A stretch of DNA of 64,000 nt. It comes from Candidatus Aquitaenariimonas noxiae (GTDB taxonomy: Bacteria; Omnitrophota; Gorgyraeia; Aquitaenariimonadales; Aquitaenariimonadaceae). The notes under the pieces are model-generated. The model worked only from the letters and a program-made list of their open reading frames with translations. It did not search any database and was not told the DNA's origin. The translations under genes and the position numbers were made by a program. The stretch is taken from positions 25,150 through 89,149 of the forward strand of contig PEWV01000025.1 in assembly GCA_002780005.1 (NCBI GenBank), read 5' to 3'. This document shows, piece by piece, positions 11,596 to 50,400 of this stretch. The stretch's first letter is position 1, and the number at the start of each line of letters is the position of its first letter.

Positions 11596-11596
11596 T

Positions 11597-21100: not shown

Positions 21101-24100
21101 TATCCAGAAAAGGCTCAAAGCCCGCTCTATAAGCATATGCGGGCTTTTCAATTCAACAGTATAGGAAATATACTTTACGATCACGGCAATAACGCCGGCT
21201 CTTAATAATCCGGCAATTACCTGGCCTATACCCAAAAGGCTCCAGAAATTAGTGCGGACATCTTTAGGCACGGTCCTGTCCCAGCGCACTGTCCTTTCTT
21301 GTATGATACGGCTATTTCCGAACTGTATCATATTTCTATATGCGGATACTAAATTGCTAATTATAAGAACGGCCATAACTACGCCCTGCGCCGAGATCCC
21401 AAAAAGCCCTGCCCAATGCGGTTGGGCAAGTAAGGTAGCCAATAGAAAATAGATCATTACGAAAGCGAATCCAACCATAACCTGCCAGAAGGCAACCCAT
21501 TTTCTATCCTGTATTAATTGCTCCCTTAATTTGAATTCGGGCGACATGGCTAAACCGCTGCGGCGTTCTTGATACGGTCTTTCCGCATCTTTTATCTTTT
21601 CGGTACGATTCATGCGGGCATAGACTATCGTTACTGCAAGTATTGCCGAGAATGCTACAAATGATAATTCCATCCACAAAAATGACATGGAAAGGATGCC
21701 GAATTGCATTTCGGCTACGCGGGTTAAAGTTAAAAGAAGCACGGTCTCCAAAACCCCGAAGGAAGGCCAGGCTAAAAGCTCTCCTACTTCGAGCCATAAA
21801 TTCATAGGGCTTGCCGGCAGGTATCGCGTAAAGTACATACGAAGGAGGCCAAGGAAATTTGGACAAGGGGTCGAGACGATTTCCGGGGGATGAACTTCAA
21901 AAGCTACTATTTCGCCCTGATGTTCCGATGAAAATCTGCCACCGTCAAAACCATCTCTGGTGTCATTCCATCGGACTTCAACGCCCCTTACCCATATTGA
22001 TCTTCCCCTGGTAAGATGATCAAGGATCTCGTCTTTTCTTTCTTGCAAAATGCCTATTATGGAATTGCTGCCGAACTTATTAAGAAATCTCTCCCAAATA
22101 TGCTCTGCGCGCTCATCCTGACGAGATGGCTCAGGCGCTTGGGCTACTTCCGCCTGTTCATCACGTAACCTATTTAGGACTATTACAGCTTTGCTCCATA
22201 TAAAAGGTGCTACCACGGCTGTCCAAACATAAGCTATTAAATCGCTTCCTAAAATACTTGGAAGTCTATGAATAGATTCGTGAGATAAGATAAGTCTTTG
22301 GTCCTGCGGCGAGATAGATTCGAGGGCTTCCCGTATTCTCTCTTTTGTTATACTAGAACCTTTTCTGATGCTGAATGCTAAATTTTTGTCTCTGCCTGTA
22401 ACTATTAAGACATCTTCTGTTTGCTTTTCACTCTCTATGAGTTCTCTTTCTAATGCGACTTGTAAAGACGGATGAATGTCAAAAGGTGGTCCTGCCCTCG
22501 TAGGCGCGCTGGTAGATAAATGCGCCAGCATGTTCAGCGGGCCGCGCGACAAATTGAACAATCTCACGGCTGAAACTGAAAAATAAACTCCTAATATAAA
22601 CGGCAAAGCTGCAAATAACCAGTGCGCATTCAAATAAAAAGCTATAGCGACTCCTGCAATCCCGCCTAAAGCAAAAAGGCTGCTTGCGAAACCTGTAACC
22701 ATTGCCGGCTTAGGAGCGATCGGTATTGAAGAAATATCCTCTTCATCAGATAGCGCCAAAGTCGGCTCTAGATCTAAAATGAATTTATTCTCATCCTTTT
22801 CTCTAAATCCGAACCTGTTAGCGATCGAACGCATTTCTTCATTTATACCTGCAATCTCGCAGCTAAACCTTGTATAACCCCGCCCTTCCAGCCGTTCTAT
22901 AAAAATCTCGAATAACTTTGTACCTATGCCTTGTTCTTGAAAATTAGGATCTACCGCCATTTCTCTAAGCTCGAACGTCCTGCCGTGCACAGGCGAACCG
23001 GTTATATATCCTTGGACCTTACCATTTACCCTGCAGACTAAAATATCCGGCTTTATTTCCGCATCGCCCTGCGACATAGCGATGATCGTTCTATAACCGC
23101 TGGAAAAATCATGGCCGCCGGCTTTTTTGGCTTCTTCGGCTCGGTGCGGATAGATTAAAGAACTAAGCTCTGCGATCCTTCCGACATCATTTTCAAGGGC
23201 CAGCGTAATTTCCGCACCCTTGCCTATTTCTGCAATTAAGATATCTTCTTCTCCGAAATCTAACGCATACTGGACAGGCCTTTGGGCTTGAACAGGCTGT
23301 GGCTCATTTAACACATCTTCAACAATTTGAGTAAGCGAGCTGAATTCCCTGTGGCTTATCCGGGAATAACCCGGAGGCGCCCTGGCAGATTCTGATGTAA
23401 CCCAGTCGGCGACATCCAAAAACATATCTCTATCTTCTAAAGACGACCAAACAGGAAGATCCATAACTGTGGAATAGTCACCTATCGGCAGCCTGCCGAA
23501 GAGTTTCCAAAATCTCAAGGGGACTATTACGTGGTAGATCAGGCCCCTTAATTGTTTTTTTGTCGTAAGCGAGCTCAAGTTTGACGGATAAGCGATCCCG
23601 TACAAATCGCAATAATCCCTAACTATTTGTTTAACATCAGCGATCGAGACATCAGATCCTTTAAATTGCCGCCAAAATCTTATTCTTTCCTCTTTTTCAT
23701 AATCAAAAATTGTGCGATCCTGCCATGACGCGCCGTGTCTAAGCGCCCATAGGGCAGGATGTGTTTGTAAAATAGCGCCTTGTTCGGAAAGCTCCTTTAG
23801 TCTATGTGCTGCTATTTTTCTTGTAACTTTATTACTGTCTGTAAGCTTTTTAATTAAAGTTGCGAGCTCAGCCCTGCTTATTTGAGCAGTAACGGCTTCT
23901 GCATTATCGGCGGGTTCTTTTGGTTCATCCCTATCGGCTGTTGCGGGAACTGCGACGGCATCTTCTTCGGCAACCGGCAATGCCTTCATCTTCATTATCT
24001 GCCTGCAGAGATTTCTATTTATTCTTACATCTGTGGCCCCCTCTTCCTGGCCTACTAATTCATTTGTATATGGATGAGTTGTCTGGCTTGGATTGTAATA

Positions 24101-24508
24101 ACGAAGGATATAGCCGTTCATGCAGCTTATCAGTATCTCGCCTCTGCCGGTCGTATGTTGCAGTTCTGCAACCCAGCCTTGGCCGGCTTCTGCTAAGGCC
24201 GCCCTTACGCCATCCAGGGACAAGTTTTCTTTTGTCCGGCCGTTCCCGTTTTCGATCAATTCGATAAGAAGCTTGGCCTTTACGCTGACAAGCGATTTTT
24301 CATTATCAAAAATCGACGGAGGAATTAAGGCGTGCCTTTTTGTTAACCCCGTTAGAAACTTTGTTATATTTCTTTTTTTAGATGATATTTCTAACGGGGT
24401 GAATATATCCGGATCGGCATAGGCAACAGTCTGGTATATAAGGCAAAATACTAGCGTTAGCGCTATTGCCTTTACCCAGGTATAATTTTTCAAATTAATA
24501 ATGCTCAT
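11597..24508 (-). CDS. giant (4303 aa) polytopic membrane multidomain protein with GNAT, about 20 TM helices, HExxH motifs, SAM methyltransferase, two wHTH-like modules, HD domain, HisKA plus HATPase_c core and the conserved C-terminal module
   Basis: Uninterrupted 12,912-nt ORF with ATG at 24506-24508 and TAA at 11597-11599, 1 nt before the next ATG. Signal peptide VKAIALTLVFCLIYQTVAYA|DPD. Motifs: QEQGIGTKLFE (GNAT), HELGH and HETAH, VVLDLGCGGGEDS (methyltransferase motif I), LFHDIDRFF (HD), FIHDVLQPMTEL (H-box-like), then LRRILSNLLTNIPRYV, IEVEDDAGGI and GHGLATSRQF..GVGTTFKI (GHKL N, G1 and G2 boxes). Many hydrophobic 20-25-aa stretches at aa 600-650, 905-1150, 1520-1760 and 2050-2180. Confidence 0.85.
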   Translation of the reverse strand: MSIINLKNYTWVKAIALTLVFCLIYQTVAYADPDIFTPLEISSKKRNITKFLTGLTKRHALIPPSIFDNEKSLVSVKAKLLIELIENGNGRTKENLSLDGVRAALAEAGQGWVAELQHTTGRGEILISCMNGYILRYYNPSQTTHPYTNELVGQEEGATDVRINRNLCRQIMKMKALPVAEEDAVAVPATADRDEPKEPADNAEAVTAQISRAELATLIKKLTDSNKVTRKIAAHRLKELSEQGAILQTHPALWALRHGASWQDRTIFDYEKEERIRFWRQFKGSDVSIADVKQIVRDYCDLYGIAYPSNLSSLTTKKQLRGLIYHVIVPLRFWKLFGRLPIGDYSTVMDLPVWSSLEDRDMFLDVADWVTSESARAPPGYSRISHREFSSLTQIVEDVLNEPQPVQAQRPVQYALDFGEEDILIAEIGKGAEITLALENDVGRIAELSSLIYPHRAEEAKKAGGHDFSSGYRTIIAMSQGDAEIKPDILVCRVNGKVQGYITGSPVHGRTFELREMAVDPNFQEQGIGTKLFEIFIERLEGRGYTRFSCEIAGINEEMRSIANRFGFREKDENKFILDLEPTLALSDEEDISSIPIAPKPAMVTGFASSLFALGGIAGVAIAFYLNAHWLFAALPFILGVYFSVSAVRLFNLSRGPLNMLAHLSTSAPTRAGPPFDIHPSLQVALERELIESEKQTEDVLIVTGRDKNLAFSIRKGSSITKERIREALESISPQDQRLILSHESIHRLPSILGSDLIAYVWTAVVAPFIWSKAVIVLNRLRDEQAEVAQAPEPSRQDERAEHIWERFLNKFGSNSIIGILQERKDEILDHLTRGRSIWVRGVEVRWNDTRDGFDGGRFSSEHQGEIVAFEVHPPEIVSTPCPNFLGLLRMYFTRYLPASPMNLWLEVGELLAWPSFGVLETVLLLTLTRVAEMQFGILSMSFLWMELSFVAFSAILAVTIVYARMNRTEKIKDAERPYQERRSGLAMSPEFKLREQLIQDRKWVAFWQVMVGFAFVMIYFLLATLLAQPHWAGLFGISAQGVVMAVLIISNLVSAYRNMIQFGNSRIIQERTVRWDRTVPKDVRTNFWSLLGIGQVIAGLLRAGVIAVIVKYISYTVELKSPHMLIERALSLFWIAIPFAVIYAVSKALLPIFVRQPFNPYIRITTPGTSYVVTKLNEGSGLVTYYDFGGGLKVKCLGDSNIRPVKDAKGEWFIFYPDRFNMVVCAGEGFKYKEGPGNLLYPWRHMWRWSNGSCRAELVQYGWQRRGLKAEEVGPGEFKITSEYSTNGNNNWVDRLLVQFEFDPAVREALETKRAEAEIRLKEEGVIYVWGFPVSYDPGEDRFIFEVEDFRKDLADEPVVIYSPEVRKYEVVEINAENRRLGLLDSIAPSGNTEEAGRLQEEASTAGSVKDRKDYLVYYHDAETGQSVAAAVVNVTCVCETWPERIVDIRSVKLPGIGELPIEEVIEFNANKIRVAKDDVSPETDRVLVGFRRAAPETPDAVYYEKDTDTFSQKWQLYRSFFRSRIFALGEIGWLLTNVFGGIIRVLVVLPYNFMGESFTRLAMTSFLAGIASSIVMVISSYVSYRKADEALQGDTSGAEGKLRKAWLWICTIRLASVLFKTILFPQIFIFLFNPATMPLTYTVFLFAASFIDTIEMSFVSMVWYSIFERELRHRFTKYWVGIGFGTFLNQILGVVSTGATLYFAGNFINNYHQQLSGYLQGVANIPPAVATPPTFGTGPLILVGASLVAYVVARLLLPLLSRRFALVRTKQEASGESMKTMLTAREGTGPIQYEDLVFDEKYDGLELQLEKSKRPVRGGEAQGDREKLQGLVYDALDALETETQGTEAEAILKDIIARNLKENRAPPVIRVVSSDNFTVNAARYIDINGNVEILLNKTFVETLLSAPSEYRSATKWLLAERLFHELGHDNSIGLAVEEKDEEKAQVFRDLILYTSCVYNKPLFDEIREYFTKEKPSFPSGNYFDERGLEYLAGLKENASTREDYEHLFYQISLFVSSRYYAEDAFTPSGFVVKAMPTGQRAGSNATNSAGRFFGAFALYGASFMIINLLVGMHIMPALVLFIPLALSISLLARGVSYKTSIAMFVASILLAVGILVIHPVGIAWVTGATTLTILGAMVSFSAGAMLKQLRSGREITILQRALLVILLLVTIFIPQYVRVQQELGAANDRAIRYKIPENADRAKARRTIRRPDWYRMGNEMRSGSRYIDKRDGQGFLYGPKLRTALMAMRELDPEMFSWMEANDVPIYRDGATPPWVAGYTGRMNRGYAYTFAPGGAGVRYNINPVEYSRQAIENAVRAGKVDIPIEEVQELTEEDLDTSSVANIYSVIEHETAHYRELWPYYDNWISEKILDNITMFKLIDIEKRAFNRAMEGKERAGYHVTFLDKFEYVQKAYNIQRMMIIFTTIIKDVFLILLVWFLSNPIRIVRGIRRGILSHCFIDYETYFLMSDVIGDIRSGKWRKTHRKLRDFVEERVSSVHDAIMYRIEWRPDALIVWRDIHMAFAAYAENVARDRQRKGDRELWEDTLRRLSALRPVVHRRDGLTARHLLNRYFDRNLYICGPARIDEQGNIAWPVTNMKPDSDTPHYWDEFERRATVGWLVIETAYANALRREGVRRVYLERRDRSQRNLSQDQIDRLFGGPIRPLKPHSTIAGPGVREEDHDNITNPMLERIFDGEKPGCYISDTEGSETRQSQEDNKLLADLRGLTLNYYKDTPEEAEASEDLKDTNIYLLDPDARSPPEARSYCLWQDVADPVARFVIGHAGRGLGGHFREGEFPAQQNGYLPLALMRQLMVDRAREKVRDNIGRYNYLTRVIALMVRHEARHAREKKLTNGETEEVEQEVAEMMRALHPYLSANQARLLEERFEEFGDKVAQILEHYGTFTAQEIEDSERLLESWRSSAVLTPIELWQLWSYLTLTGREMGEEYAQLHRDIVGLISEAFKNGKKDEQDIVPQIDGVVIGYPWRRSDPSMERAANIIDKKRALLERVAFRSGEVVLDLGCGGGEDSVDIARNNPEVMVYGIDARSENLKRAIAYADASIPGQSNIRFLQRDFRSNPENIPLRGIPLNDSSVDKILLLSDVFVGQSEEFIVSAWQEVLRVLKPGGQIIFFGSVGLVELEDLLGMKVEDYLIYHIVVKAYWGNLYSYIINVESKPPYAAAHRTYPQGSPAEFLKSILLTKDWPTPELQVLATRFKSGGALTISELQQLRFKNQENFGEGVFSYETVRIEIANLEEAGIVNIDRNSSTHKISLRKELKGKMPRYLVNRLCNIRIDAPSLQRSSRLSSQPLRHYDEVSKLQAEEVHALRQMVDKILGQSTLPDSSTTTQPAPVITAESKKGWHGVTTAFSGLASPKGSPAEALCDLFAHRSQIGINPITVRSAQGEWRRENTRTGKPYARVVIANELEALRRLGFLAIKDAPDSEPREPVRGKPNVYYLTNIFFQIQDEELVDRICDIDVEGDYVMQHCTYSESRLAMARDKITEHMRCTAPIDITHRQESDEILGRLRTAIEENRTNLNKMTDPEKAQWLFDWMDANKNCRDELFIRNMPPHMRSIPGIIREIDPSADPAALIAGLFHDIDRFFEGYYVHPSDGFKGGTPQYLHYKSNQHPRLSANFALKWLREAGVSDKVLGDVEILILRHETGITEEVAAENGFQQEAASDMNLLQRADSISQFIPELLINSYILLERDKGKGEGNAMIRYKYARLVPEDKIRADAFVAAGEETFRQSKEGVETLAVFQSIRSELMHTQGTAEGAKAPLGQPAVTVEPTEESVKMVAFIHDVLQPMTELYGWLAYVQDNLRPDADASEKEKFMAVYTLLDSIKVTQQERKRPYYHGRETGDWNAVVEDGKAFADELRQAYGAVKVYFTENPTRLDAITDPSVLEICRESFEGDFSAAALEFAESGLDMLDSYVMENIELGAFLGGFLQARGKEFHDKNIRIYFEKPQEGLIVKASRGGLRRILSNLLTNIPRYVEAGAEHKVTVRLKPSNGQVLIEVEDDAGGIRKPEMLEKVLDPETQTETKAIFVRGSSDKEDTGILSKGHGLATSRQFALSFGGDMDVDTEAGVGTTFKIILPQVEGKAEPGRIQAERFVENIRALAKEAKDNGEELLVGIDTEIGNLGDYAQNLLTILTELRQKEGLDNLTVIAGEGNVLSAHLNAYLEDALRAGRKVRAAAIVREDNRAKRMFNSLEGKSQIISVDDTRIMSEDGKTLNQFIPITRIVECALMRVLNKPYEPIPYVEEREEDGILKFIMLPPAQPLSEEELRRRYDEEAEFIGNA
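12209..13126 (-). other. histidine-kinase core (HisKA-like H-box plus HATPase_c) embedded in giant gene 2 (aa ~3795-4100)
   Basis: H-box-like FIHDVLQPMTELYGWL, then N-box RRILSNLLTNIPRYV, G1 VLIEVEDDAGGI and G2 KGHGLATSRQFALSFGGDMDVDTEAGVGTTFKI. Confidence 0.55.
13499..13831 (-). other. HD-domain-like region in giant gene 2 (aa ~3560-3670), paralogous to the one in giant gene 1
   Basis: NMPPHMRSIPGIIREIDPSADPAALIAGLFHDIDRFFEGYYV..NQHPRLSANFAL..ILRHETG aligns residue for residue with the MSPHMQALPDVV..LHDADRFFDGYYV..IQHPRMAADFAR..IRNHEKG segment of gene 1. Confidence 0.5.
15059..15541 (-). other. class I SAM-dependent methyltransferase domain in giant gene 2 (aa ~2990-3150)
   Basis: GEVVLDLGCGGGEDS (motif I), MVYGIDARSEN (motif II) and LKPGGQIIFF (post-II). 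Checked at 15421-15448. Confidence 0.65.
22799..23191 (-). other. GNAT N-acetyltransferase-like domain in giant gene 2 (aa ~440-570)
   Basis: ELREMAVDPNFQEQGIGTKLFEIFIERLEGRGYTRFSCEIAGINEEMRSIANRFGF matches the acetyl-CoA-binding motif A (Q/R-x-x-G-x-G/A). Checked at 22860-22951. Confidence 0.55.
23993..24335 (-). repeat. N-module DNA repeat, copy A (5' end of giant gene 2), ~88% identical to 34000..34342
   Basis: Direct read-off alignment: cattatctgcctgcagagatttctatttattcttacatctgtggccccctcttcctggcctactaattcatttgtatatgg.. against cattatctgcctgcatagatttctatttattcttacatctatgacgccctcttcctggcccactaattcatttgtatacgg.. It encodes the near-identical segment LIPPSIFD..VKAKLLIEL.ENGNGRT.ENLSLDGV.AALAEAGQGWVAELQ..GEILIS.MNGY.LRYYNPSQTTHPYTNELVGQEEG..DVRINRNLCRQIMKMKALP. 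Confidence 0.8.
24347..24399. repeat. small palindromic (MITE/REP-like) element inserted in-frame in giant gene 2
   Basis: CCCCGTTAGAAA (24347-24358) and TTTCTAACGGGG (24388-24399) form a perfect 12-bp inverted repeat around a 29-bp AT-rich core. The element encodes ~18 extra residues (TPLEISSKKRNITKFLTGLT) that giant gene 3 lacks at the homologous position between the signal-peptide cleavage site and HTLIPPSIFD. Confidence 0.6.
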
Positions 24509-24510
24509 GT

Positions 24511-25059
24511 TTAGGCTTTTCCTATGAATTCCGATTCTTCCATATACCTTCTTTCAAGCTCTTCTCTTTCAAGCGGTTTTGCATCTTCCTGCACACTAAG
24601 TATAAGTTTTAAAATACCGTCTTCCTCAACCTCTTCAACGTATGGAATCGGTTCATGAGGCTTGCTTAGTATTTTCGTCAAGGCGCGCTCTATTATTTTA
24701 GCGATTGGAATATAGTAATTCAGGCTGCCTGTAAAGTTATCTATAACACGACTATCATCAACTGAAACAACTTGAGCTTTATCGACTAATGATTTAAACA
24801 TCCTTTTCTGCCTATTGTCCTCTTTCACTATAACTACTGCCCTAACCGTCTTACTGTCCCTTTGCGCATCTGAAAGATATGTATTTAATTGGGCCGACAG
24901 AATAGTTCCCTCACCGGTAATGACCCTTAAGTTTTCCAATCCCTCTCGGTCTTTAAGATTAACCAATGTCTCAAGCAGGCCTGGCGCATAATCTTTCAGA
25001 TTTCCGATTGTCGTGTCTATGCCCACTACTAATTCTTCGCCTTTATCTTTTGCTTCTTT
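24511..25059 (-). other. conserved C-terminal module, copy 3
   Basis: EELVVGIDTTIGNLKDYAPGLL..NLRVITGEGTILSAQLNTY..TVRAVVIVKEDNRQKRMFKSL..QVVSVDD..YIPIAKIIERAL..KPHEPIPYVEEVEEDGILKLILSVQEDAKPL..RYMEESEFIGKA*. Confidence 0.75.
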
Positions 25060-28000: not shown

Positions 28001-31000
28001 GCCTTCTCTTCTCTCGCCTTCCTTCCGGCTTCAGCATTGGCTAAAGCCTGCCTTAACAACTCTTTCTTTTCCTTACGATCCCGCCATTTGATATATTCTT
28101 CGCGGGACATTAGGCCGGCTTTGATCAAGAGAACAATAGCTGTGCCGACAAGCAGGCCTTCCACAGCCATTCTTCTTGCATAACTCCTAGGGCCTTCTGA
28201 AGGATAATTTCTCTCAAATCTCATTAAGTTAAGGGCTCCTGCGAACGCAAACAGAGCGCCTATATATCCGATTAGAATAACCAAGGCTGGATGAAGGTGC
28301 AGGCTTAAAAACCATATTATTCCTGCAACCGACCCTCCGCCGAATACGAGCCCTGCCCAAAGTTTCCACTTGCCTGGGGCTATAACCCTTCTTTCATAAA
28401 GAATCTTCCTAAGGTCCTGTTTATCAAATTTATCAAACACCCTTATCAGCAATTCTCTTTGCTGGCTGTTATGAGTGGCTAGTATAAAATCCAGGGTCGC
28501 ATTCGTAGCTTCACTCTCACCGCACTCGCGCGCCATATGATACAATTCATGATGGACATTGAGCAGCACGAATATCTGCGTCAATTCTTTGGCTAGATTC
28601 TCTAATTGCCAAGGAGTCATATTTAAATTCATTTCCTGCGCTACTGCGGATAATCTATAGTAAGTATCTATAAATAAATCATAATCTAAGATCATTAAAT
28701 TGTTCTGTCTCTGCGAAACGTGCCCCAATTGCGGAAAACCCCATCCTATGCGTATAGCTATGCAAGGATTATCTGTCCCTGTCTGTCTCTGTTTTTCGAA
28801 TATATCCCTTAGAAGTTGCCGCATAGCCGGGATATTAAAGGCATTTTGTAAATTAATCCTGTATTCATCGGGAATAAATTCGCCTGGCGCTGTATCCTGG
28901 CGCTGATAGACAACAATCTGCCCCCTTCTGTCCGGAACAGCAAAAAGGACCGCTATTTTATCAGTTGTCATTTCATTAATACTTGGGGGATAAGGTTCGA
29001 CTCTTTCAAAAAACGAAAACATGTTAGCGCCTCGACCTGTTTTTGGCAAAACAGCCAGCTTTAATCGGGCGCTAATCCTGGCAAAAGTCCTCGAGACAAC
29101 GCTCCTGACGCTGCCGGCCGCGAACCGATTATCGCGCTCGATCAAACCTCTAAGGGCTTCGGGTTTTAACGCGCCTCTATAAGAGATGCCCAGCCTCTCT
29201 ATATTAGTTAAGACATGGCTGTAAGATGCTGCCGCATCGCCAAAAGCGCCTCTGGCTTCACATTGTAAAGCTGCCGTCAGATCGGCATTGACCTCACCCT
29301 GCAAAACTTCAGCTTGCTCGAGCGCGATTTCCTCAAGCCTAGCCGTCGCCGCTTCCATACGAGACGTAAAACAATCAAAACGCCTTATCAAATAGCCAAG
29401 CCAATTATAAGCATGCTCCACCTGGACCGGATAAATATTATTCGATGCCACCAAGTCACTTATATGCTGGTCTTCCAGCTCTCCCGTTTCAGCAAGGTAT
29501 AATATATCTACTATACCGGCATAGGTAAGATCTATATCCGGACTAAAAACTGTTCCTAGAATTTTCAAGAGTAGAACAGGATTGCCTCTAACAGCGGCTC
29601 TATATTTTATGCCGCTCAAAACTTGGTTTAGAGGGCTCACCAGCATGCCTACGTAGCGCAGCTCGCCTTCTACGCGATCCCTCGATAGGCGCATGTCGAG
29701 ATCTGAAACAACTCCGTTAATAATCACCTCTCTCATGGCCCGCTTGAATATATCTCGATCAGCGATTTCATCGGCGACACTTGCTTGAGATAGCTTTGCC
29801 AAAACATTTTCTAGCACCATAAAAGGATCCGCATCCGCTGTCATAGAGATGTGCCAAATAGTATCAGCAAGCATTTCCGCCCTATCTTTTCTGACAGCAA
29901 TCCTACCTCTACCAACGCCTGCAACAACCTGATTTGCCACGGTTTCAACAATTAAAGCCGCAGTTCCCGCACTTCTCGCGCCCGCATCAGGCGGAATTGT
30001 GGCAAATACGCCTCCGGCTTCCCAAACATATTTATTATAGAAATGGTGTAAGGCCACTGTTAAAACAAAAACCGGTATAATGCTTGGGGCGAGACCCAAA
30101 CTAAACATCAATGCCATCGGCACAACGCTGAATAGGAGCCCTGGCACTAGGAAGAATAAACCTAATCTAAAATCCTCCTGCTTCCTAAACCCAAAAAGAC
30201 TTCCGGTATGTTCAAAAATCCATCTTTTTTCTATCAGGTTATCGCCGATCCTGGGACTGCGCACGTAAACTCTTAAATGGCCTAATAAGAAAGTTGTAAA
30301 TGTCATTACAGCTGCTATTGATCCGGCTATAAACAAGGGCTGATGCAATATAGACAAAAGAAGGAAGGTTGAGCCGTAGTATATAGATAACCTGATAATA
30401 TTTTCTATTACCGGAGCCACGTAAAGCGAATATCCCCTCAATCCCTCTTTGCCCTCTTTCGAAGTAGATGCCGCAGTTCTCAGGAGATCAACCTTAGAGG
30501 CCCATTGCCATATGTCTTTTCCTGTGAATAATTTCACTATCCATCTTATAGAAGCTATAAGCGCAACAGAAGTTGCCGGGGGTAAAGAGTCTTCACCTTC
30601 TTGCGTTCCTCTCTCAACAATAGTTTTAGCATCCGATCTTGCAATAATATCATGCGCTAATACGCATTTTAGATAAGGATCCGGGTTTTCTTTATAAATT
30701 CTTAATGTTCTATCTGCACCTTCTTTTGCATTATCGACAATCCTTATCAACTCCTCTACCGTTAGGTCAACGGTTAACCCTCCTGTAAGCTGCTCAAACA
30801 CTAAGGCACTATCAAATGTTAATTGAAATGGCGGTTGTGCATAGTGGTGCATAAATTGCCGCGCAGACTCTACGAGTCTACGGATATCAACAGGGGATAT
30901 GTGCCGCTCTCTCGCGGCATCTATAAGTTGCGTTACTTCCGGATGTTTCTCCTGATATTTAGTGAGATACGTTTCGGCCCTCTCGGTTTCCGCGCTTAAC

Positions 31001-34000
31001 TCTTGCGTCTCAGGAGACGTCAGGGCTTCCGGACCCCGCCTTCTTGCTATAATATCAATTTCCGGATTATCCTCTATAAATTCACTTAAAAAACTCCTGG
31101 CTGCAGAATCTCCTTTTCTTGAAATTTCTAAAATAATACCGGCCCCGCCTTCAGCATTAAGCAGCCCCCTGGCCGCAGCAGTTCTTACTTCAAGGCTCGG
31201 GTCATTCTGCAATGCCCCCCTCAATACGGTAAGGCCGCGCTCGCCGGCCCTGCTGAGCGCTAATGCCGCGGCTAATTTCGAATCCGTATCCACATTCGTT
31301 CCCAGCACTGCCTGCAAATTCCTTATTCCGGAATTACCTGGTAAACTTGCCAACCCCAAAGCCGCAGCATATTTAGCATCCATATCAGACGGCTTTTCTG
31401 TTCTGCTTGATAATATGCCATTCAAAACATCTGTCCCTCGACTCATCGTACCGAGCGCTATAGCGGCGCAGTACTTAGCAGCCAAATTATCATTATTGCG
31501 TATAACGCCGTTGAATACCCTTACAACATCATCCCCAAAGTGAGTTAACGCTATTGCCGCGCCTTTTTTAGCGCCAAAACTCGGATTTGTGGACAAAATA
31601 CCGGCAAGTTTTCTTTGGGGCTTGCTTTTATCAGTGGCGGCCATTCTCATAAGATGCTCGCGCGTTTCAGCAAAATTTGGGTCTTCAAACAACCCCAATC
31701 TCTGGCCTCGGGCACCTGTCAAAACTTCGTCAATATGCCTGACCGCTGCCAGCCTACTGCGATCTGTTGTTAATACCTCCCTGCGGTGCAAAAGCGTTGA
31801 TTCCACGCGATGGCTTTGCGTTTCCTTTAAAATCCTGATCATTACAGGTTCTATATGAGTCTGGATATAGATTTCGTCTTCATCGTTTAAAGCCAAAGAT
31901 AGATTGTTCATTACTGCTTCAGGCTGTTCTTCTGCAAACGACACGAGAAAATCATCGATAAATGCGCTTACAACCGGGTCTTCTGCCTTATACATGCCAG
32001 ACAAGATTCGCACTGATTCGTCAGGGTAGGCATGGGCGATATTCCTTATAGTATCGATTGCAAATTGTATAACTGGTTGTGGAAAATCGTGCAAAAGACC
32101 CAAATATTGGCGCAAAACTTCACCCATATTCGCACTCAAGGCCTGCGCCAATCTATCTTGAGATTCTAGTTGGGCTTGACGCAAGGGCATCAAATCACTT
32201 CCCTCTAGGGTTTTAACATCTCCTTGCTGCATGCCGCTGACTGTAACAGGTCCGATCGCTATTCTTTCCATCCTAATAACGGGATTCCCAACAGCATCCA
32301 TCATTCCTTTGACCTGACGGTATTTTCCCTCACTTATAAAGAGATCTAGCGTCGTAGTACCGTGACCTCGCTCGATTATCGCAATTCTGGCCGGAGCCGT
32401 ATCATATTCAATTAAGCTTCCTTCCATAATTTCTACTTCAACGTGCACTCCTTCTTCGAGCGCCATCTTCTTGTCATCTGTAACCTCACCGCTGGCAACA
32501 ACTCTATACTGCTTCTCTATATGGCCGGCCGGCAGTATAAGATTACCTATCATGCTGGGATCATCAGTGAGGATCATAACGCCAGGAACATCATAATCCA
32601 GGCGGCCTACCGGATAGAGGCCTGTTGTATCTATATGGTGATCTTCGGAAAGGATGTCATATATAGTCCTTCTGTTAAGCCCTTCGGCGTCTTCGCGAGT
32701 GGATAAAACATCAGCCGGTTTATATAATAGATAATATCTAAATTTGACCGGCACGCGCACAACATTGCCAAACTGATCCAATAACTCTACTTCGCCTTCG
32801 CGAGCCAATCGATATAACTCGTCAAAAAGCACTCGTCTAAAATGGGGGGCGAGCATTATCGCATCTTGAGTTAAGCCTATGTCATGCGTCGCCTGCATGA
32901 GTTCTATATTGTCGGGTCGGGCAAGATATTCGACAGTATCTTTTATAGCATTCCCTTCGTCTGTTATGCCTTTTATTCCATGCGCGCCTATATCATGCGA
33001 CCACAAGCCCATGAGAAATAGGATGCGCTGGTCCTGCAGTTCCGGAGGAGCCCTTAAAAGCGGCCAGTTTATTATGACCCTGCCGGGCATATGCGTTGCC
33101 GCCTCATCAATATCATATCTCAGGCTTAAAGTTATTTTGAAACCTTCGGCCGGGATCCTATCCGCTAGTTCGGCCTGCTGTGTTCTAAACCACCGTTTTA
33201 GAGAAATATCAAGGATCCCTATTTCCGGATATTTTGCGAGTAGTTCTTCCTCTTTCATGCTGCCATTCATAATAGGCTCTATATCATTTTCCTGAACTCC
33301 TGACATGCGCAAAAATCTTTCATCCATAGCCAGATTGATTTCGCCGGACTTAGTAATGCTGATATCGGCAGTAAGCGGCGTTTCACGCGCGATACCTAGC
33401 ATTTCTTCTGCGGCTTCCTCGGAAGGTCTTCCGTCTTCCATGGGTTGAGCGCGGGCAACTACAGCCGGATAAGCCTTTGCTGCATCCTGAGGCACAAGGC
33501 AGGCATTCAAGAAAGCTCTTTCAGCGCCGTACCAAATATACCTGTCTGAAAGATCAATAGCCCTCTGCCTCAGTTCCTCGGTAGAGGCAGCCCCATATTG
33601 CTCAATATTGGCAATAATATGTCTGACAATTGTTTCAAACTCAGCGGTACCGCTTTGACCAGCTACTATAGTATAATTTTGCTCTCCCCTTGCGTATCTT
33701 CTTAAAATTTCTATTCTATCAGCAAGGGTAGCTCCCGTTAATATTCTTTGCAATAACTGTCCAAATGCATCCGCGTCGGCACGATCACGCGCTTCAAACC
33801 CTGCTATTAAACTGCTCCAGCTCTGGTCTTCTTTTATAGCGTAATAATGAGTAGCCCAATATTCGTTTGAGCGCACCCCTCCGCCTGGCTCAACAATCCT
33901 GTCATTTGGCCTGCCGGCCATAGCCATAGGCTCTCGCAGCCCCAACTCTGCCCTAGTAGGAATTGGAGGCAATCCTGGCTCAGGCAGGGCTTTCATTTTC

Positions 34001-34656
34001 ATTATCTGCCTGCATAGATTTCTATTTATTCTTACATCTATGACGCCCTCTTCCTGGCCCACTAATTCATTTGTATACGGATGAGTCGTCTGGCTTGGAT
34101 TGTAATACCGAAGGACATAGCCGTTCATGAAGCTTATGAGTATCTCGCCTTTGCTGGTTGTATATTGCAGCTCCGCGACCCAGCCTTGGCCGGCTTCGGC
34201 TAAAGCCGCCTTTACGCCATCCAGGGACAGGTTCTCTCTTGTCCGGCCATTCCCGTTCTCGACCAATTCGATCAGAAGTTTGGCCTTTACGCCGGCCAGG
34301 TAATTTTCATCGTCAAAAATTGATGGCGGGATCAATGTATGCTTATTTTGATCTAATATATCGGGATTAGCATATAATATATTTTGGAACGTAAATGATA
34401 TTATAAGCAGAAATGAAATAATCTTAATAATGGGCTTTTTGTGGAAATACGAAGGATGGAATAGAAAGAAGCTTTCGATAAACCCCGTTAGAGAACTTCG
34501 TTCTCTAACGGTTTGTGCTGACAGTGGCTTTAAACTGCCGTCAGCTTTAAGCGGTAATGACCGCCGATTAAAATCGGCGGTTTTCTCTAACGGGGTAAAC
34601 CGTTTGAAATGAGATGGTATATCTCTTTTTTGTTCTATATTAAACCCGCAGTTCAA
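24511..34656 (-). CDS. giant (up to 3381 aa) membrane multidomain protein with the conserved N-module, RsuA/RluB-type pseudouridine synthase, HEAT/PBS-lyase-like repeats, TM segments, HExxH motif, lytic-transglycosylase-like region, wHTH module and the conserved C-terminal module; true start codon uncertain
   Basis: Uninterrupted ORF with TAA at 24511-24513. The longest ORF starts at TTG 34654-34656, but the signal-peptide-like segment KIISFLLIISFTFQNILYA|NPD, homologous to the N-terminus of gene 2, begins only ~75 codons later, and no ATG, GTG or TTG lies near it. Motifs: VGRLDYDVPGVMILTDD and EKQYRVV..GKYRQVKGMMDAVGNPV (pseudouridine synthase), HEAT-like AAIALG / AALGLASL / AALALSRAG repeats, HELYH, and ETDSFNSSGPKATTLDSSGKYARGIAQLL (SLT-like). 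Confidence 0.8.
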   Translation of the reverse strand: MNCGFNIEQKRDIPSHFKRFTPLEKTADFNRRSLPLKADGSLKPLSAQTVRERSSLTGFIESFFLFHPSYFHKKPIIKIISFLLIISFTFQNILYANPDILDQNKHTLIPPSIFDDENYLAGVKAKLLIELVENGNGRTRENLSLDGVKAALAEAGQGWVAELQYTTSKGEILISFMNGYVLRYYNPSQTTHPYTNELVGQEEGVIDVRINRNLCRQIMKMKALPEPGLPPIPTRAELGLREPMAMAGRPNDRIVEPGGGVRSNEYWATHYYAIKEDQSWSSLIAGFEARDRADADAFGQLLQRILTGATLADRIEILRRYARGEQNYTIVAGQSGTAEFETIVRHIIANIEQYGAASTEELRQRAIDLSDRYIWYGAERAFLNACLVPQDAAKAYPAVVARAQPMEDGRPSEEAAEEMLGIARETPLTADISITKSGEINLAMDERFLRMSGVQENDIEPIMNGSMKEEELLAKYPEIGILDISLKRWFRTQQAELADRIPAEGFKITLSLRYDIDEAATHMPGRVIINWPLLRAPPELQDQRILFLMGLWSHDIGAHGIKGITDEGNAIKDTVEYLARPDNIELMQATHDIGLTQDAIMLAPHFRRVLFDELYRLAREGEVELLDQFGNVVRVPVKFRYYLLYKPADVLSTREDAEGLNRRTIYDILSEDHHIDTTGLYPVGRLDYDVPGVMILTDDPSMIGNLILPAGHIEKQYRVVASGEVTDDKKMALEEGVHVEVEIMEGSLIEYDTAPARIAIIERGHGTTTLDLFISEGKYRQVKGMMDAVGNPVIRMERIAIGPVTVSGMQQGDVKTLEGSDLMPLRQAQLESQDRLAQALSANMGEVLRQYLGLLHDFPQPVIQFAIDTIRNIAHAYPDESVRILSGMYKAEDPVVSAFIDDFLVSFAEEQPEAVMNNLSLALNDEDEIYIQTHIEPVMIRILKETQSHRVESTLLHRREVLTTDRSRLAAVRHIDEVLTGARGQRLGLFEDPNFAETREHLMRMAATDKSKPQRKLAGILSTNPSFGAKKGAAIALTHFGDDVVRVFNGVIRNNDNLAAKYCAAIALGTMSRGTDVLNGILSSRTEKPSDMDAKYAAALGLASLPGNSGIRNLQAVLGTNVDTDSKLAAALALSRAGERGLTVLRGALQNDPSLEVRTAAARGLLNAEGGAGIILEISRKGDSAARSFLSEFIEDNPEIDIIARRRGPEALTSPETQELSAETERAETYLTKYQEKHPEVTQLIDAARERHISPVDIRRLVESARQFMHHYAQPPFQLTFDSALVFEQLTGGLTVDLTVEELIRIVDNAKEGADRTLRIYKENPDPYLKCVLAHDIIARSDAKTIVERGTQEGEDSLPPATSVALIASIRWIVKLFTGKDIWQWASKVDLLRTAASTSKEGKEGLRGYSLYVAPVIENIIRLSIYYGSTFLLLSILHQPLFIAGSIAAVMTFTTFLLGHLRVYVRSPRIGDNLIEKRWIFEHTGSLFGFRKQEDFRLGLFFLVPGLLFSVVPMALMFSLGLAPSIIPVFVLTVALHHFYNKYVWEAGGVFATIPPDAGARSAGTAALIVETVANQVVAGVGRGRIAVRKDRAEMLADTIWHISMTADADPFMVLENVLAKLSQASVADEIADRDIFKRAMREVIINGVVSDLDMRLSRDRVEGELRYVGMLVSPLNQVLSGIKYRAAVRGNPVLLLKILGTVFSPDIDLTYAGIVDILYLAETGELEDQHISDLVASNNIYPVQVEHAYNWLGYLIRRFDCFTSRMEAATARLEEIALEQAEVLQGEVNADLTAALQCEARGAFGDAAASYSHVLTNIERLGISYRGALKPEALRGLIERDNRFAAGSVRSVVSRTFARISARLKLAVLPKTGRGANMFSFFERVEPYPPSINEMTTDKIAVLFAVPDRRGQIVVYQRQDTAPGEFIPDEYRINLQNAFNIPAMRQLLRDIFEKQRQTGTDNPCIAIRIGWGFPQLGHVSQRQNNLMILDYDLFIDTYYRLSAVAQEMNLNMTPWQLENLAKELTQIFVLLNVHHELYHMARECGESEATNATLDFILATHNSQQRELLIRVFDKFDKQDLRKILYERRVIAPGKWKLWAGLVFGGGSVAGIIWFLSLHLHPALVILIGYIGALFAFAGALNLMRFERNYPSEGPRSYARRMAVEGLLVGTAIVLLIKAGLMSREEYIKWRDRKEKKELLRQALANAEAGRKAREEKAQAISVKINRIKPLLIGMRSDDFRNRIYGTFVDPYIEAYIEQEDLDLLMDIVRFSRPEYMGWTSDKLRANLLDLAARKYSDKFDIAEPEDRKIRITLRSEERLYRTLRYVYLAHMDRDAVLNAVARKVFADPKFSNMTEAQRNELMARFLNKFKFLAGQEKDNIPFNRVLGLLFYETDSFNSSGPKATTLDSSGKYARGIAQLLDGDEEADHYRKIFDGLKAEGVLSGEYDPYDPIQSICVVTRKMKMVRDSEDLAPYMGGISAKGGARNVTRFSYAAYVGGGGTPAYNIRLMQSDDPNAEWWNFDVIRDVMLVRKTYKSRYTWGYGEAVVSDYDDVVTRFYDILEVLSEPSGATAATVTPTPLGQEKTPGRMPGATPTLPAAPKTTPDGYIAQGHIALERMNQDIAERKYRPLEDGLKEFVIEEINNSEISDVSLRSAIDRLSNPEYYEEGATPPISQEEAPGLFARIWGDLIAPDNNKLSLALLYDLPNATLREVVSQIENSQDFALGQNKLDDAENPAIYYSRDFLGTLPWPLKGEYILHEILCRHFGHQAARALQIVFFPANYPEGKPEGLLRDRIRVYIDGPRNFAERKEQDRYGIIFNPGDVNSALMVTNGWSDDALQGEDRDINGVVGRLNALPFIYTTWADAPTPRAYLELYSYSGEAPQERIDLYFRKLQSDKQTSSADIPSNNKLYVSFKADESNPNFTRFIDELNGLDGVEVVRTSEYDGSRFSSEWALLIEVPQDIIDAKDPLMCQENIEDKMSAIERIAEDFLRIEHIPFTPDGSPAVFLHSLLLTKDWPTPELTELATRFKNGEALTIAELQQLRLKNPSNISEGTYSYETVRVEISNLEQAGIVSIDRADKVHKVTLRPELARAPPREIVEAICNIRIEASSLQRSARLTDQPLRHYDEVSKLTDQERELLRAKVDHIIGKVKTVEQEAQVILPKEEDMIAGMPTLSMEPSQEEAVRLVASLRSLAKEAKDKGEELVVGIDTTIGNLKDYAPGLLETLVNLKDREGLENLRVITGEGTILSAQLNTYLSDAQRDSKTVRAVVIVKEDNRQKRMFKSLVDKAQVVSVDDSRVIDNFTGSLNYYIPIAKIIERALTKILSKPHEPIPYVEEVEEDGILKLILSVQEDAKPLEREELERRYMEESEFIGKA
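27127..27519 (-). other. possible family-1 lytic transglycosylase (SLT)-like region in giant gene 3 (aa ~2380-2510)
   Basis: FYETDSFNSSGPKATTLDSSGKYARGIAQLL resembles the E-S-x-F-x-P-x-A-x-S-x-x-G-A-x-G-L-M-Q signature, with AAYVGGGG further on (AYNAG-like). The match is imperfect. Confidence 0.3.
31102..31599 (-). other. HEAT / PBS-lyase-like alpha-helical repeats in giant gene 3 (aa ~1020-1185)
   Basis: Four or five ~30-aa units, each with an A-A-I-A-L-G / A-A-L-G-L-A-S / A-A-L-A-L-S-R-A-G / V-R-T-A-A-A-R-G-L core. Confidence 0.45.
32227..32754 (-). other. pseudouridine synthase (RsuA/RluB/RluE family) catalytic domain in giant gene 3 (aa ~635-810)
   Basis: YYLLYKPADVLST..LYPVGRLDYDVPGVMILTDD (motif II with catalytic Asp), HIEKQYRVV, and EGKYRQVKGMMDAVGNPVIRMERIAIG (motif III, K/R-x-H-Q-I-R-like). 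Verified at 32581-32610. Confidence 0.65.
34000..34342 (-). repeat. N-module DNA repeat, copy B (5' end of giant gene 3)
   Basis: See copy A. The two copies are offset by about 10.0 kb in direct orientation. Confidence 0.8.
34483..34595. repeat. nested palindromic element sharing the CCCCGTTAGAGAA arms, in the 5' region of giant gene 3
   Basis: CCCCGTTAGAGAA at 34483-34495 and TTCTCTAACGGGG at 34583-34595 form an outer inverted repeat. The local hairpin CCGTTAGAGAAC-ttc-GTTCTCTAACGG lies at 34485-34511, and a perfect 20-bp palindrome CCGCCGATTAAAATCGGCGG at 34561-34580. The left arm can pair either locally or long-range, which are mutually exclusive RNA structures. Confidence 0.6.
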
Positions 34657-34755
34657 AATTTTACCCCCCGCAGTTTTTAACTTTTTATTGTATTATCATA
34701 TAACTTGATATGTTATACTATAAATATAATCTTACTTTTTATATGATTTACCTAA

Positions 34756-44394: not shown

Positions 44395-44410
44395 TTTCCG
44401 CCTCCTGCGT

Positions 44411-45040: not shown

Positions 45041-45053
45041 TTTATATATAATC

Positions 45054-47114: not shown

Positions 47115-47116
47115 TT

Positions 47117-50398: not shown

Positions 50399-50400
50399 AT

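What the first reader, a model, noticed from the sequence alone, without database searches (positions are those of the whole stretch)
23993..34342. N-module sequence is ~88% identical at the DNA level between giant genes 2 and 3, which suggests gene conversion or recent duplication
The ~340-bp segments 23993..24335 and 34000..34342 align almost base for base in direct orientation, about 10 kb apart, while the rest of the two genes is diverged (the C-modules are only ~65% identical at DNA level). The fourth paralog and gene 1 share a second N-module subtype (1..470 against 11200..11590, ~75%). Such high-identity direct repeats are substrates for homologous recombination. They would allow deletion or duplication of whole 10-kb genes and may be homogenised by conversion, possibly a mechanism for cargo shuffling or phase-variable expression.
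Basis: seen in the sequence. Interest (0 to 1): 0.6.

Follow-up and report, generated by a model that had tools for sequence, protein, structure and literature searches.

The report
Old gene-conversion patch in giant paralogs
Two neighbouring 10-13 kb genes of an uncultured Omnitrophota bacterium share a ~320-base stretch that was copied from one gene into the other long ago; this is an ordinary kind of recombination, but it shows that these giant genes are built as cassettes between shared end modules.

Summary
Segments 23993-24335 and 34000-34342 align without gaps at 298/343 = 86.9% identity (blastn 86.1% over 366 nt, E = 7e-125). Every other homologous part of the two genes is 57-66% identical.

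Protein-level selection does not explain it. In g2 codons 66-172 (window 23993-24313; g3 34000-34320) pS is 0.31 (CI 0.20-0.43) and dS about 0.40. In the C-modules and the other shared modules pS is 0.70-0.90, which is saturated. The tract lies inside the conserved module. At the module's edges the amino acids are kept, yet 0 of 11 codons are the same, against 68 of 89 inside (p = 9e-7).

The best reading is one old, non-reciprocal recombination patch (gene conversion) between two N-modules that were already homologous, followed by purifying selection (dN/dS about 0.16).

It is neither recent nor ongoing. Mismatches are evenly spread, the longest identical run is 24 nt, and 15 contigs of the same species show no rearrangement. 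The phase-variation idea is therefore not supported.

Context: a four-gene operon of membrane-anchored, multi-enzyme giant proteins in Omnitrophota. The family is rare and sits at a conserved recJ-rpmB/recG locus that holds one to four such genes in different species.

The parts
23993..24313 (-). Low-synonymous-divergence tract, copy in g2 (codons 66-172)
   Evidence: pS 0.31, dS 0.40, dN 0.063 against the g3 copy; 68/89 identical amino acids use the same codon
34000..34320 (-). Low-synonymous-divergence tract, copy in g3 (codons 113-219)
   Evidence: Same analysis. One population SNP at 34108, at a 4-fold site; the variant allele is not the g2 state
23975..24334 (-). N-module type A of g2 (aa 59-178). 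The tract lies inside it. The edges (aa 59-65 and 173-178) are conserved as protein but saturated at synonymous sites
   Evidence: No Pfam or NCBIfam match. AlphaFold model unusable, pLDDT 37
33982..34341 (-). N-module type A of g3 (aa 106-225)
24511..34656 (-). g3, 3381 aa: leader/signal anchor, N-module A, pseudouridine synthase and HEAT domains, about 5 internal TM-like segments, C-module. First gene of the array
   Evidence: Identical to NCBI PIU41965.1, Candidatus Omnitrophica bacterium
11597..24508 (-). g2, 4303 aa: leader, N-module A, GNAT, SAM methyltransferase and HATPase_c domains, about 17 internal TM-like segments, C-module. Starts 2 nt after the g3 stop
508..11595 (-). g1, 3695 aa: leader, N-module B, PCMT, cytidylyltransferase-like (below Pfam's cut-off) and HAD domains, C-module. 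Starts 1 nt after the g2 stop
1..501 (-). 5' part of g0 (1097 aa in L013): leader plus N-module B. Fourth paralog, split by a frameshift from the following 1103-aa ORF that carries the C-module (outside the window)
11152..11592 (-). N-module type B of g1 (aa 2-148)
   Evidence: 56% aa identity and 64% nt identity to g0; pS 0.73, saturated. Homologs in P0004, P0005, P0013 and P0014
61..501 (-). N-module type B of g0 (aa 1-147)
24514..25170 (-). C-module of g3 (aa 3163-3381)
   Evidence: 56-64% aa identity among g1, g2 and g3; pS 0.70-0.81. Rossmann-like alpha/beta model, pLDDT 74.5. No Pfam or NCBIfam match
11600..12226 (-). C-module of g2 (aa 4095-4303)
511..1089 (-). C-module of g1 (aa 3503-3695)
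14408..14950 (-). Internal shared module of g2 (aa 3187-3367), homologous to g3 aa 3003-3178 (window 25123-25650). Used as a saturated control
   Evidence: 59% aa identity, pS 0.90

Best explanation
An old intrachromosomal gene conversion. A non-reciprocal homologous-recombination patch of about 320-340 nt was copied between the type-A N-modules of the two promoter-proximal genes (g3 and g2) of a four-gene giant-protein operon. The two N-modules were already homologous and already saturated at silent sites. The transfer reset the silent-site divergence inside the patch. Since then the copies have drifted apart again to dS of about 0.4 under purifying selection on the protein (dN/dS about 0.16).

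Shown: the nested tract of low synonymous divergence, its sharp limits, and the saturation of everything around it. Inferred: that RecA-type recombination made it, that it was a single event, and its direction (unknown).

The genes encode membrane-anchored multi-enzyme giant proteins of Omnitrophota. Each is built as leader + N-module + variable cargo + C-module.
For: (1) Gap-free repeat, 86.9% over 343 nt, E = 7e-125.

(2) Synonymous divergence. Tract pS 0.31 (bootstrap CI 0.20-0.43), dS 0.40. g2/g3 C-module pS 0.81 (CI 0.71-0.90). Internal module pS 0.90. Other C-module pairs pS 0.70-0.77. N-module B pair pS 0.73.

(3) Codon identity at identical amino acids. It is 72% in the first N-core cut and 76% in the refined tract, against 31-50% in all other modules (Fisher p = 1e-8). 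Permuting codons within each amino acid inside the tract gives 42.4 +/- 3.8 same codons against 68 observed (P < 1e-4), so codon bias is not the cause.

(4) Nested boundaries. g2 codons 59-65 and 173-178 keep the amino acids, but 0/11 keep the codon, against 68/89 inside (p = 9e-7). The adjacent leader has pS 0.85. This is the pattern of an internal patch, not of a duplication.

(5) No competing nucleotide-level feature. There is no Rfam hit. No alternative-frame ORF is open in both copies. The RNA folding energy of the tract is ordinary against 105 windows of equal size (52nd and 20th percentile). The N-module B pair shows no such effect.

(6) Type A is found only in g2 and g3 among the family members recovered. 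Module-wise identities disagree: g2/g3 are closest in the N-module but not in the C-module.
Against: Only two sequences carry the type-A module, and no orthologs from a congeneric genome were found. The classical test (paralogs clustering by genome rather than by gene) could not be run, and donor and recipient cannot be told apart.

The edge evidence rests on 11 codons. Nei-Gojobori estimates on about 70 synonymous sites are rough.

A sequence-specific constraint on the mRNA or DNA of this tract cannot be strictly excluded, for example co-translational targeting or pausing just after the signal anchor.

The two copies are now 11-13% apart, so conversion is not currently homogenising them.
Confidence: 0.7

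Rival explanations
1. Selection at the nucleotide level. The tract's mRNA or DNA carries a function that constrains silent sites in both genes, such as a structured RNA, a translational pausing or targeting signal after the signal anchor, or a protein-binding site.
For: The tract lies directly after the leader and signal anchor, where mRNA-level signals for membrane targeting are conceivable. The limits of the tract are sharp.
Against: There is no Rfam match. Folding energy is ordinary relative to 105 windows from the same genes. 22 silent differences have accumulated and are evenly spread. The equivalent region of the g0/g1 pair shows no silent-site conservation (46% same codon, pS 0.73). No alternative-frame ORF is shared.
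Confidence: 0.1
2. A recent duplication of a whole gene or of its 5' segment, followed by replacement of the cargo. In this case the N-modules are simply the youngest remnant of a duplication.
For: The array grew in this lineage: 4 genes against 1-2 in syntenic relatives. The g2C|g1N and g1C|g0N junctions are colinear over 942 nt at 67%, so junction-spanning duplications did occur.
Against: The leader immediately 5' of the tract is saturated (pS 0.85, 34% aa identity, with an 18-aa indel). The aa-conserved module edges have 0/11 identical codons. The g2/g3 C-modules and internal module are saturated. A duplicated 5' segment would include the leader and the module edges.
Confidence: 0.07
3. Both genes, or one of them, received the patch from a third donor: another paralog elsewhere in the genome, or a related strain by horizontal transfer. 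The transfer was not from each other.
For: The direction and donor cannot be determined. The two copies are 11-13% apart, which would also fit two separate imports from diverged donors.
Against: No third type-A copy exists in the 64-kb window or the flanking loci. The word-index protein search with the g2 N-module and the N-module scan of the metagenome collection found nothing, but neither recovered this species' own g3, so neither carries weight as a negative. The C-module profile search of 1.84 billion representatives recovered type A only in g2 and g3. This rival is still a recombination patch and differs only in the donor.
Confidence: 0.08
4. Purifying selection on the protein alone keeps the two N-modules alike.
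For: The module is strongly conserved as protein (87% aa identity, dN 0.06).
Against: Silent sites are also conserved, and only inside the tract. The edges of the same module are conserved as protein but fully diverged at silent sites.
Confidence: 0.03
5. Assembly artefact: a chimeric or collapsed repeat.
For: The source is metagenomic, and several contigs end inside or near g3.
Against: Independent JGI, ENA and Logan assemblies give the same sequence: 10 contigs over the g3 copy, and L012 plus the window over both copies. Copies only 87% identical with at most 24-nt exact runs do not confuse assemblers. Contig ends do not coincide with the repeat.
Confidence: 0.02

Closest known systems
Intragenomic gene conversion / concerted evolution of bacterial paralogs (e.g. 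tufA/tufB and rRNA operons; survey of prokaryotic cases in PMC6053082; rates between E. coli rrn operons in PMC8022953)
   Same: A segment of two paralogs in one chromosome shows much lower silent-site divergence than the neighbouring homologous sequence and has discrete limits. The most likely agent is RecA-type homologous recombination without crossover.
   Different: Here there is a single, old patch (dS about 0.4) in otherwise saturated genes, not continuing homogenisation. The genes are 10-13 kb mosaics in which only the end modules are homologous. No orthologs are available to show clustering by genome.
Multi-enzyme giant proteins of Omnitrophota (Nielsen & Lui 2026, bioRxiv 10.64898/2026.06.07.730766; West-Roberts et al. 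2023, bioRxiv 10.1101/2023.11.21.568195)
   Same: Same phylum. An N-terminal signal peptide or TM anchor plus internal TM helices. A polypeptide tiled by unrelated enzyme domains of the same 'module 1' set: methyltransferase, HATPase_c, GNAT and HAD.
   Different: Each protein is 3.4-4.3 kaa, not >=10 kaa. The four genes are separated by 1-6 nt and sum to about 13.6 kaa. Neither paper's text mentions a shared N-module or C-module, tandem paralog arrays at a fixed locus, or gene conversion (term searches).
Modular toxins with conserved delivery ends and exchangeable cargo (MARTX, Rhs/CdiA polymorphic toxins); from general knowledge, not tested here
   Same: Conserved terminal modules flank highly variable enzyme cargo. 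Cargo content differs between related genomes at one locus. Conserved ends offer homology for recombination.
   Different: There is no sequence or fold relation to RTX, Rhs or CdiA modules. No Pfam hit to them was found in the giant proteins scanned whole or in the modules scanned alone. No immunity genes or orphan tips were seen. The cargo consists of housekeeping-type enzymes, not recognised toxins.
Cassette-based phase/antigenic variation (pilE/pilS, vlsE, msp2); from general knowledge
   Same: Direct repeats within a paralog array could in principle mediate non-reciprocal exchange.
   Different: Those systems rely on near-identical flanks, silent donor cassettes and visible heterogeneity in the population. 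Here the repeats are 87% identical with at most 24-nt exact runs, all genes are full length and operonic, and no variants were seen.

Membership tests
Gene conversion tract between paralogs | Silent-site divergence in the tract is significantly lower than in the flanking homologous sequence of the same gene pair | tested here: met
   pS 0.31 (CI 0.20-0.43) against 0.81 and 0.90. Same-codon rate 76% against 31-50%. Fisher p = 1e-8; permutation P < 1e-4
Gene conversion tract between paralogs | Discrete tract boundaries that do not simply follow protein conservation | tested here: met
   The module edges are conserved as protein, but 0/11 codons are the same, against 68/89 inside (p = 9e-7)
Gene conversion tract between paralogs | Paralogs within a genome group together, against orthologs from related genomes, for the tract only | not testable with these tools
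   No second genome with a type-A N-module was found; the direct searches with the N-module returned nothing but also missed this species' own g3. Syntenic relatives carry only type-B-like modules
Gene conversion tract between paralogs | Continuing homogenisation: near-identity, or clustered identical runs | tested here: not met
   11-13% divergence. Longest identical run 24 nt against a null mean of 28.8 (P = 0.76)
Recombination-driven phase or antigenic variation locus | Long, near-identical repeats able to recombine efficiently | tested here: not met
   86.9% identity, at most 24-nt exact match. In B. subtilis, recombination falls 200-400-fold at about 8% divergence, and the minimal identical segment needed is >40 bp (PMC4824099)
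Recombination-driven phase or antigenic variation locus | Structural variants (deletion, duplication or chimeric junctions) in the population | tested here: not met
   15 contigs from JGI, ENA and Logan assemblies are colinear at >=99.93% identity with only 15 SNP sites. Only consensus assemblies were examined, not reads
Omnitrophota multi-enzyme giant proteins (class 1 of Nielsen & Lui 2026) | Omnitrophota origin; signal peptide and/or TM helices; many distinct enzyme Pfams along one polypeptide | tested here: met
   NCBI name of the g3 protein. Leader plus 5-17 TM-like segments in g3 and g2. PCMT, HAD, GNAT, methyltransferase, HATPase_c, PseudoU_synth_2 and HEAT above Pfam's cut-off, plus CTP_transf_like just below it
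Omnitrophota multi-enzyme giant proteins (class 1 of Nielsen & Lui 2026) | Length >=10,000 aa (threshold of that catalogue) | tested here: not met
   3381, 4303, 3695 and 1097+1103 aa. The threshold is reached only by summing the operon
Leader / N-module / cargo / C-module family defined here | C-module at the extreme C-terminus and a hydrophobic leader with an F-L-x-Q-N-x-x-x-A-like motif at the N-terminus | tested here: met
   A profile search of 1.84 billion representatives gave 44 hits. In the best-scoring and most other hits the match ends within a few residues of the C-terminus of proteins of up to 4315 aa; the weakest listed hit, P0044, is the clear exception. Leaders were read in the retrieved sequences

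The most novel reading that the evidence does not exclude
The recJ-rpmB/recG locus of this Omnitrophota clade may be a cassette-type hypervariable locus. Giant membrane-anchored multi-enzyme proteins would be assembled between a conserved leader/N-module and a conserved C-module. The C-module|leader|N-module junctions would serve as portable homology through which whole 10-kb cargo genes are added, lost or re-headed by unequal crossing-over and conversion. The g2/g3 patch would be one fossil of that process. The N-module type might also specify which partner or assembly position a protein takes, as docking domains do in PKS/NRPS (an analogy only). In that case, converting an N-module would rewire the complex.

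A conserved hairpin just beyond the array carries a loop complementary to the first gene's start region. It could add RNA-level control of the operon by 5'-3' pairing.
Probability: 0.15. Interest if true: 0.6.

Novelty: new member of a known kind. Interest (0 to 1): 0.3.

Why it matters
The patch itself is a textbook signature of gene conversion and will not surprise a specialist. Its value lies in what it reveals about the genes.

These Omnitrophota giant genes belong to a very rare family: 44 representatives among 1.84 billion proteins. The end modules are conserved and uncharacterised, the cargo changes freely, and the genes sit at one syntenic chromosomal site that holds one to four copies in different species. 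Recombination has demonstrably acted on the modules.

That offers a concrete handle on how giant multi-enzyme proteins of this phylum are assembled and diversified. It also flags the N- and C-modules, which have no Pfam or NCBIfam match, as the parts most worth structural and functional study.

Tried and rejected
Searches that gave nothing:
- A word-index protein search with the g2 N-module found nothing. It did not even find g3, so this index appears not to reach these proteins.
- A scan of the metagenome collection with the N-module alignment found nothing. Since it also missed contigs of this same species, the negative result carries little weight.
- Two scans of GTDB species representatives with C-module alignments found nothing. 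Taxonomy therefore rests on the NCBI name of g3.

Structure:
- The AlphaFold model of N-module A failed (pLDDT 37), so no fold search was run for it.
- The C-module model (pLDDT 74.5) is a generic Rossmann-like alpha/beta fold. It has no PDB Foldseek match at E < 1e-3 and TM-scores of at most 0.33.

Homology of the two N-module types:
- Profile comparison of type A with type B aligned only the leaders. Their homology is suggested by eye (LIPPSIFD against LKQPTTFCPDE) but is not demonstrated.

Tests that came out negative:
- Strain comparison. All 15 contigs belong to one near-clonal population. The single SNP in the g3 tract is a third allele, not the g2 state, so it is not a micro-conversion.
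- Adjacent giant paralogs in related genomes (L016, L018) were checked for similar patches. None reached >=85% identity, so this is not a general property of the family.
- RNA structure, Rfam families and alternative-frame ORFs were tested as causes of the silent-site conservation and rejected.
Full report
WHAT IS IN THE WINDOW

All long ORFs lie on the minus strand. After recJ (34851-36560) come three very long genes:
- g3, 24511-34656, 3381 aa.
- g2, 11597-24508, 4303 aa.
- g1, 508-11595, 3695 aa.

A fourth gene, g0, starts at 501 and runs off the left end. The gaps between successive genes are 2, 1 and 6 nt, so this is an operon with probable translational coupling.

Exact-protein look-ups place the window in an uncultured bacterium that was assembled many times from JGI, ENA and Logan metagenomes. 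g3 is NCBI protein PIU41965.1 of a 'Candidatus Omnitrophica bacterium' MAG.

Contigs that extend further show that g0 is 1097 aa. It is followed, with a 4-nt overlap, by an 1103-aa ORF, and then by rpmB and recG.

Pfam finds unrelated enzyme domains scattered along the giants:
- g1: PCMT and HAD, plus a cytidylyltransferase-like match just below Pfam's cut-off.
- g2: GNAT, SAM methyltransferase and HATPase_c.
- g3: pseudouridine synthase and HEAT repeats.

g2 and g3 also contain about 17 and about 5 internal TM-like segments. This matches the 'multi-enzyme', membrane-anchored giant proteins described for Omnitrophota, although each gene here is well below that catalogue's 10-kaa threshold.

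MODULE ARCHITECTURE

BLASTP among the paralogs shows that only the ends and a few internal pieces are homologous.
- A C-terminal module of about 200 aa is shared by g1, g2, g3 and the 1103-aa ORF (48-64% aa identity).
- An N-terminal module occurs in two types. Type A is in g2 and g3. Type B is in g0 and g1.
- Each N-module is preceded by a hydrophobic leader.

g0 carries the N-module and the 1103-aa ORF carries the C-module. Repeat units run across their junction. The junction sequence shows a one-base shortfall in a C-run (GCGCCCG) that shifts the frame. The fourth paralog is therefore a split gene of about 2.2 kaa.

Neither module matches Pfam or NCBIfam.

CHECK OF THE OBSERVATION

The two stated segments align without a gap at 298/343 = 86.9%. 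blastn gives 86.1% over 366 nt with E = 7e-125. In 30-nt windows the identity is about 90% from 23976 to 24275, 70-77% up to about 24335, and about 30% outside on both sides.

The g0/g1 pair is less alike than stated. Identity is 64% over the 147 aligned codons and reaches 70-76% only in the best blocks.

IS IT MORE THAN PROTEIN CONSERVATION?

I used Nei-Gojobori counts on protein-guided codon alignments.
- The first cut of the N-core gave pS 0.375, against 0.70-0.90 in all six other shared modules.
- Among identical amino acids, 72% use the same codon in the N-core. The figure is 31-50% elsewhere, and 35-38% is expected from codon usage (Fisher p = 1e-8). Four-fold sites are 61% identical, against 22-38% elsewhere.

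Refining the limits produced the most telling result. The protein-conserved module spans g2 residues 59-178, but the silent-site similarity is confined to codons 66-172.
- At the edges (HALIPPS, and KMKALP) the amino acids are kept, yet all 11 informative codons differ.
- Inside, 68 of 89 are the same (p = 9e-7).
- For the tract, pS = 0.31 (bootstrap 0.20-0.43), dS = 0.40, dN = 0.063.
- The g2/g3 C-module has pS 0.81 (0.71-0.90) and the internal module 0.90.
- Shuffling synonymous codons among positions of the same amino acid within the tract gives 42.4 +/- 3.8 matches, against 68 observed (P < 1e-4). A local codon bias is therefore not the cause.
- The leader upstream is saturated (pS 0.85) and contains an 18-residue indel.

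ALTERNATIVES AT THE NUCLEOTIDE LEVEL

- No Rfam family matches anywhere in the window.
- No alternative frame is open in both copies.
- The folding energy of the tract's mRNA is unremarkable against 105 windows of equal size from the same genes.
- The type-B pair shows no silent-site conservation, which argues against a general mRNA signal behind the leader.

INTERPRETATION

The tract has low silent divergence and sharp limits. It lies inside a module whose edges, leader and remaining homologous parts are all saturated. The best explanation is a non-reciprocal recombination patch between two N-modules that were already homologous, that is, gene conversion. A duplication of the gene or of its 5' end would have carried the leader and the module edges along with it, and this is not seen.

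The event is old.
- dS is about 0.4, whereas the 15 contigs of the population differ at 15 sites in total.
- It is younger than the split from the syntenic relatives, whose housekeeping genes are saturated against the window.
- The 49 mismatches in the 360-nt repeat fall mainly at third codon positions (9, 8 and 32 at positions 1, 2 and 3).
- They are evenly spaced. The longest identical run is 24 nt against a null mean of 28.8 (P = 0.76), so there is no sign of later micro-conversions.
- The single SNP in the g3 tract is a third allele at a four-fold site, not the g2 state.

ARE THE REPEATS LIVE RECOMBINATION SUBSTRATES?

On present evidence they are poor ones. The copies are 11-13% diverged and share at most 24 identical bases. 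In B. subtilis, recombination falls 200-400-fold by about 8% divergence, and the minimal efficient identical segment is >40 bp (PMC4824099). Whether this organism behaves the same way is inferred, not shown.

All contigs that span g3 are colinear with the window, as are the two sequences that span both copies.

A crossover between the copies would be in frame. It would give a g3-leader/g2-cargo chimera and delete 10,007 bp. This is possible in principle but was not observed. Only consensus assemblies could be examined, so rare variants are not excluded.

THE FAMILY AND ITS LOCUS

A profile of the three C-modules was searched against 1.84 billion representative proteins. It found only 44 proteins at E <= 1e-3. 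In the best-scoring and most other hits the match ends within a few residues of the C-terminus of proteins of up to 4315 aa; the weakest listed hit, P0044, is the clear exception.

The retrieved sequences show the same plan:
- a leader of the form ...F-L-x-Q-N-x-x-x-A;
- an N-module, clearly type-B in P0004, P0005, P0013 and P0014;
- highly diverse enzyme cargo;
- the C-module.

Three relatives could be placed on contigs. In all three the genes sit at the same chromosomal site, bounded by rpmB/recG and, in the two loci that reach that far (L018, L020), by recJ. The site holds one (L020), two (L018) or at least two (L016) giant genes, against four here.

C-modules are more alike within the window genome (48-63%) than between genomes (15-48%). 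Housekeeping proteins of the same genomes are 68-78% identical. The array genes therefore evolve fast, and the array expanded in this lineage.

The g2C|g1N and g1C|g0N junctions are colinear over 942 nt at 67% identity. This suggests that past duplications spanned the C-module/N-module junction.

No patch of >=85% identity occurs between adjacent paralogs in the other genomes.

The C-module model is a Rossmann-like alpha/beta domain with no informative structural neighbour. The N-module could not be modelled.

The two Omnitrophota giant-gene papers do not mention shared end modules, paralog arrays or gene conversion.

VERDICT

- The recent-duplication and phase-variation readings are not supported.
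- The phenomenon is a new example of a well-known process in an unusual and little-studied gene family. Interest is modest for the patch itself and higher for the cassette-like organisation of the locus.

Noticed in passing
window 34645-34653 and 34667-34675 (- strand); L013:27774-27828; L016:22950-23010; L018:28484-28550; L020:18903-18970: The 9-mer AACTGCGGG occurs only twice in the 64-kb window (0.29 expected). Both copies are at the start of g3: one just upstream, and one as codons 2-4 after the TTG (L-N-C-G). The same 9-mer, read as M-x-N-C-G, marks the start of the first giant gene in L016, L018 and L020.

An inverted copy lies just beyond the last giant gene in all four genomes. It sits in the loop of a conserved long hairpin (GGCC..GCCTCCC-TAAAACTGCGGGTAAAA-GGGAGGC..GGCC) between the array and rpmB. 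On the array-sense strand, that loop is complementary to the first gene's initiation region. Possible roles are 5'-3' RNA pairing, an sRNA or decoy, or a protein-binding site. None of these was tested. There is no Rfam family.
   Followed up: partly
window 34440-34700 (- strand): The first ~70 codons of g3 have no counterpart in g2 or in relatives. They overlap an unusually structured stretch: MFE -82.6 kcal/mol against -51.1 +/- 4.7 for shuffles, z = -6.8. It includes a perfect 12-bp hairpin (CCGTTAGAGAAC-GAA-GTTCTCTAACGG) and a 9-bp GC hairpin. The 11-mer CCGTTAGAGAA occurs three times within 110 nt, twice direct and once inverted. It may be an inserted palindromic element or a regulatory leader lying inside the coding start. 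A sigma-70-like promoter match lies at 34784-34756.
   Followed up: partly
L013:24300-24400 (just beyond the left end of the window; g0 starts at window 501): The fourth paralog is split into a 1097-aa ORF (leader + N-module B) and an 1103-aa ORF (C-module) that overlap by 4 nt. Helix-turn-helix-like repeat units continue across the break in another frame. One extra C in the run GCGCCCG would restore a single gene of about 2.2 kaa. The same state is present in three independent contigs (L013-L015), so it is not a sequencing error of one assembly. It could be a pseudogene, a tolerated split, or a site of programmed frameshifting.
   Followed up: partly
L016, L018, L020 against window 1-36560: The giant-gene array occupies one syntenic site, bounded by recJ and by rpmB/recG, in four Omnitrophota genomes whose housekeeping proteins are 68-78% identical (recJ itself lies beyond the fetched part of L016). 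The site holds 1, 2, at least 2 and 4 giant genes, with almost entirely different enzyme cargo. In effect it is a hypervariable locus.
   Followed up: partly
proteins P0005, P0006, P0013, P0014 (relatives, not in the window): In relatives the cargo domains are separated by short recurring linkers, GPTTASSEW(K/Q) in P0013 and P0014 and (P)EGASPEW(V/K)G in P0005 and P0006, repeated many times per protein. They look like punctuation between domains and could be processing sites or flexible linkers. g1-g3 were not checked for them.
   Followed up: no
window 11597-24508 (g2), 24511-34656 (g3) and 508-11595 (g1): A hydropathy scan finds about 17 TM-like segments inside g2 (aa 604-2441) and about 5 inside g3, but none inside g1. 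The paralogs therefore differ strongly in membrane embedding, even though they share leader and end modules.
   Followed up: no
L013:9467-10389 against 20556-21480 (= window about 11207-12129 against about 116-1040): The C-module end of g2 plus the N-module of g1 is colinear, over 942 nt at 67% identity, with the C-module end of g1 plus the N-module of g0. This suggests that an older duplication unit spanned the gene junction rather than a whole gene (see also D3).
   Followed up: no
window 43066-57836: Upstream of the ruvABC/queA/tgt block lies an ordinary-looking polysaccharide biosynthesis cluster. It contains glycosyltransferases of families 1, 2 and 4, an epimerase/dehydratase, a Wzy-like O-antigen ligase, a flippase, a B12-binding radical SAM enzyme and a methyltransferase.
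   Followed up: no
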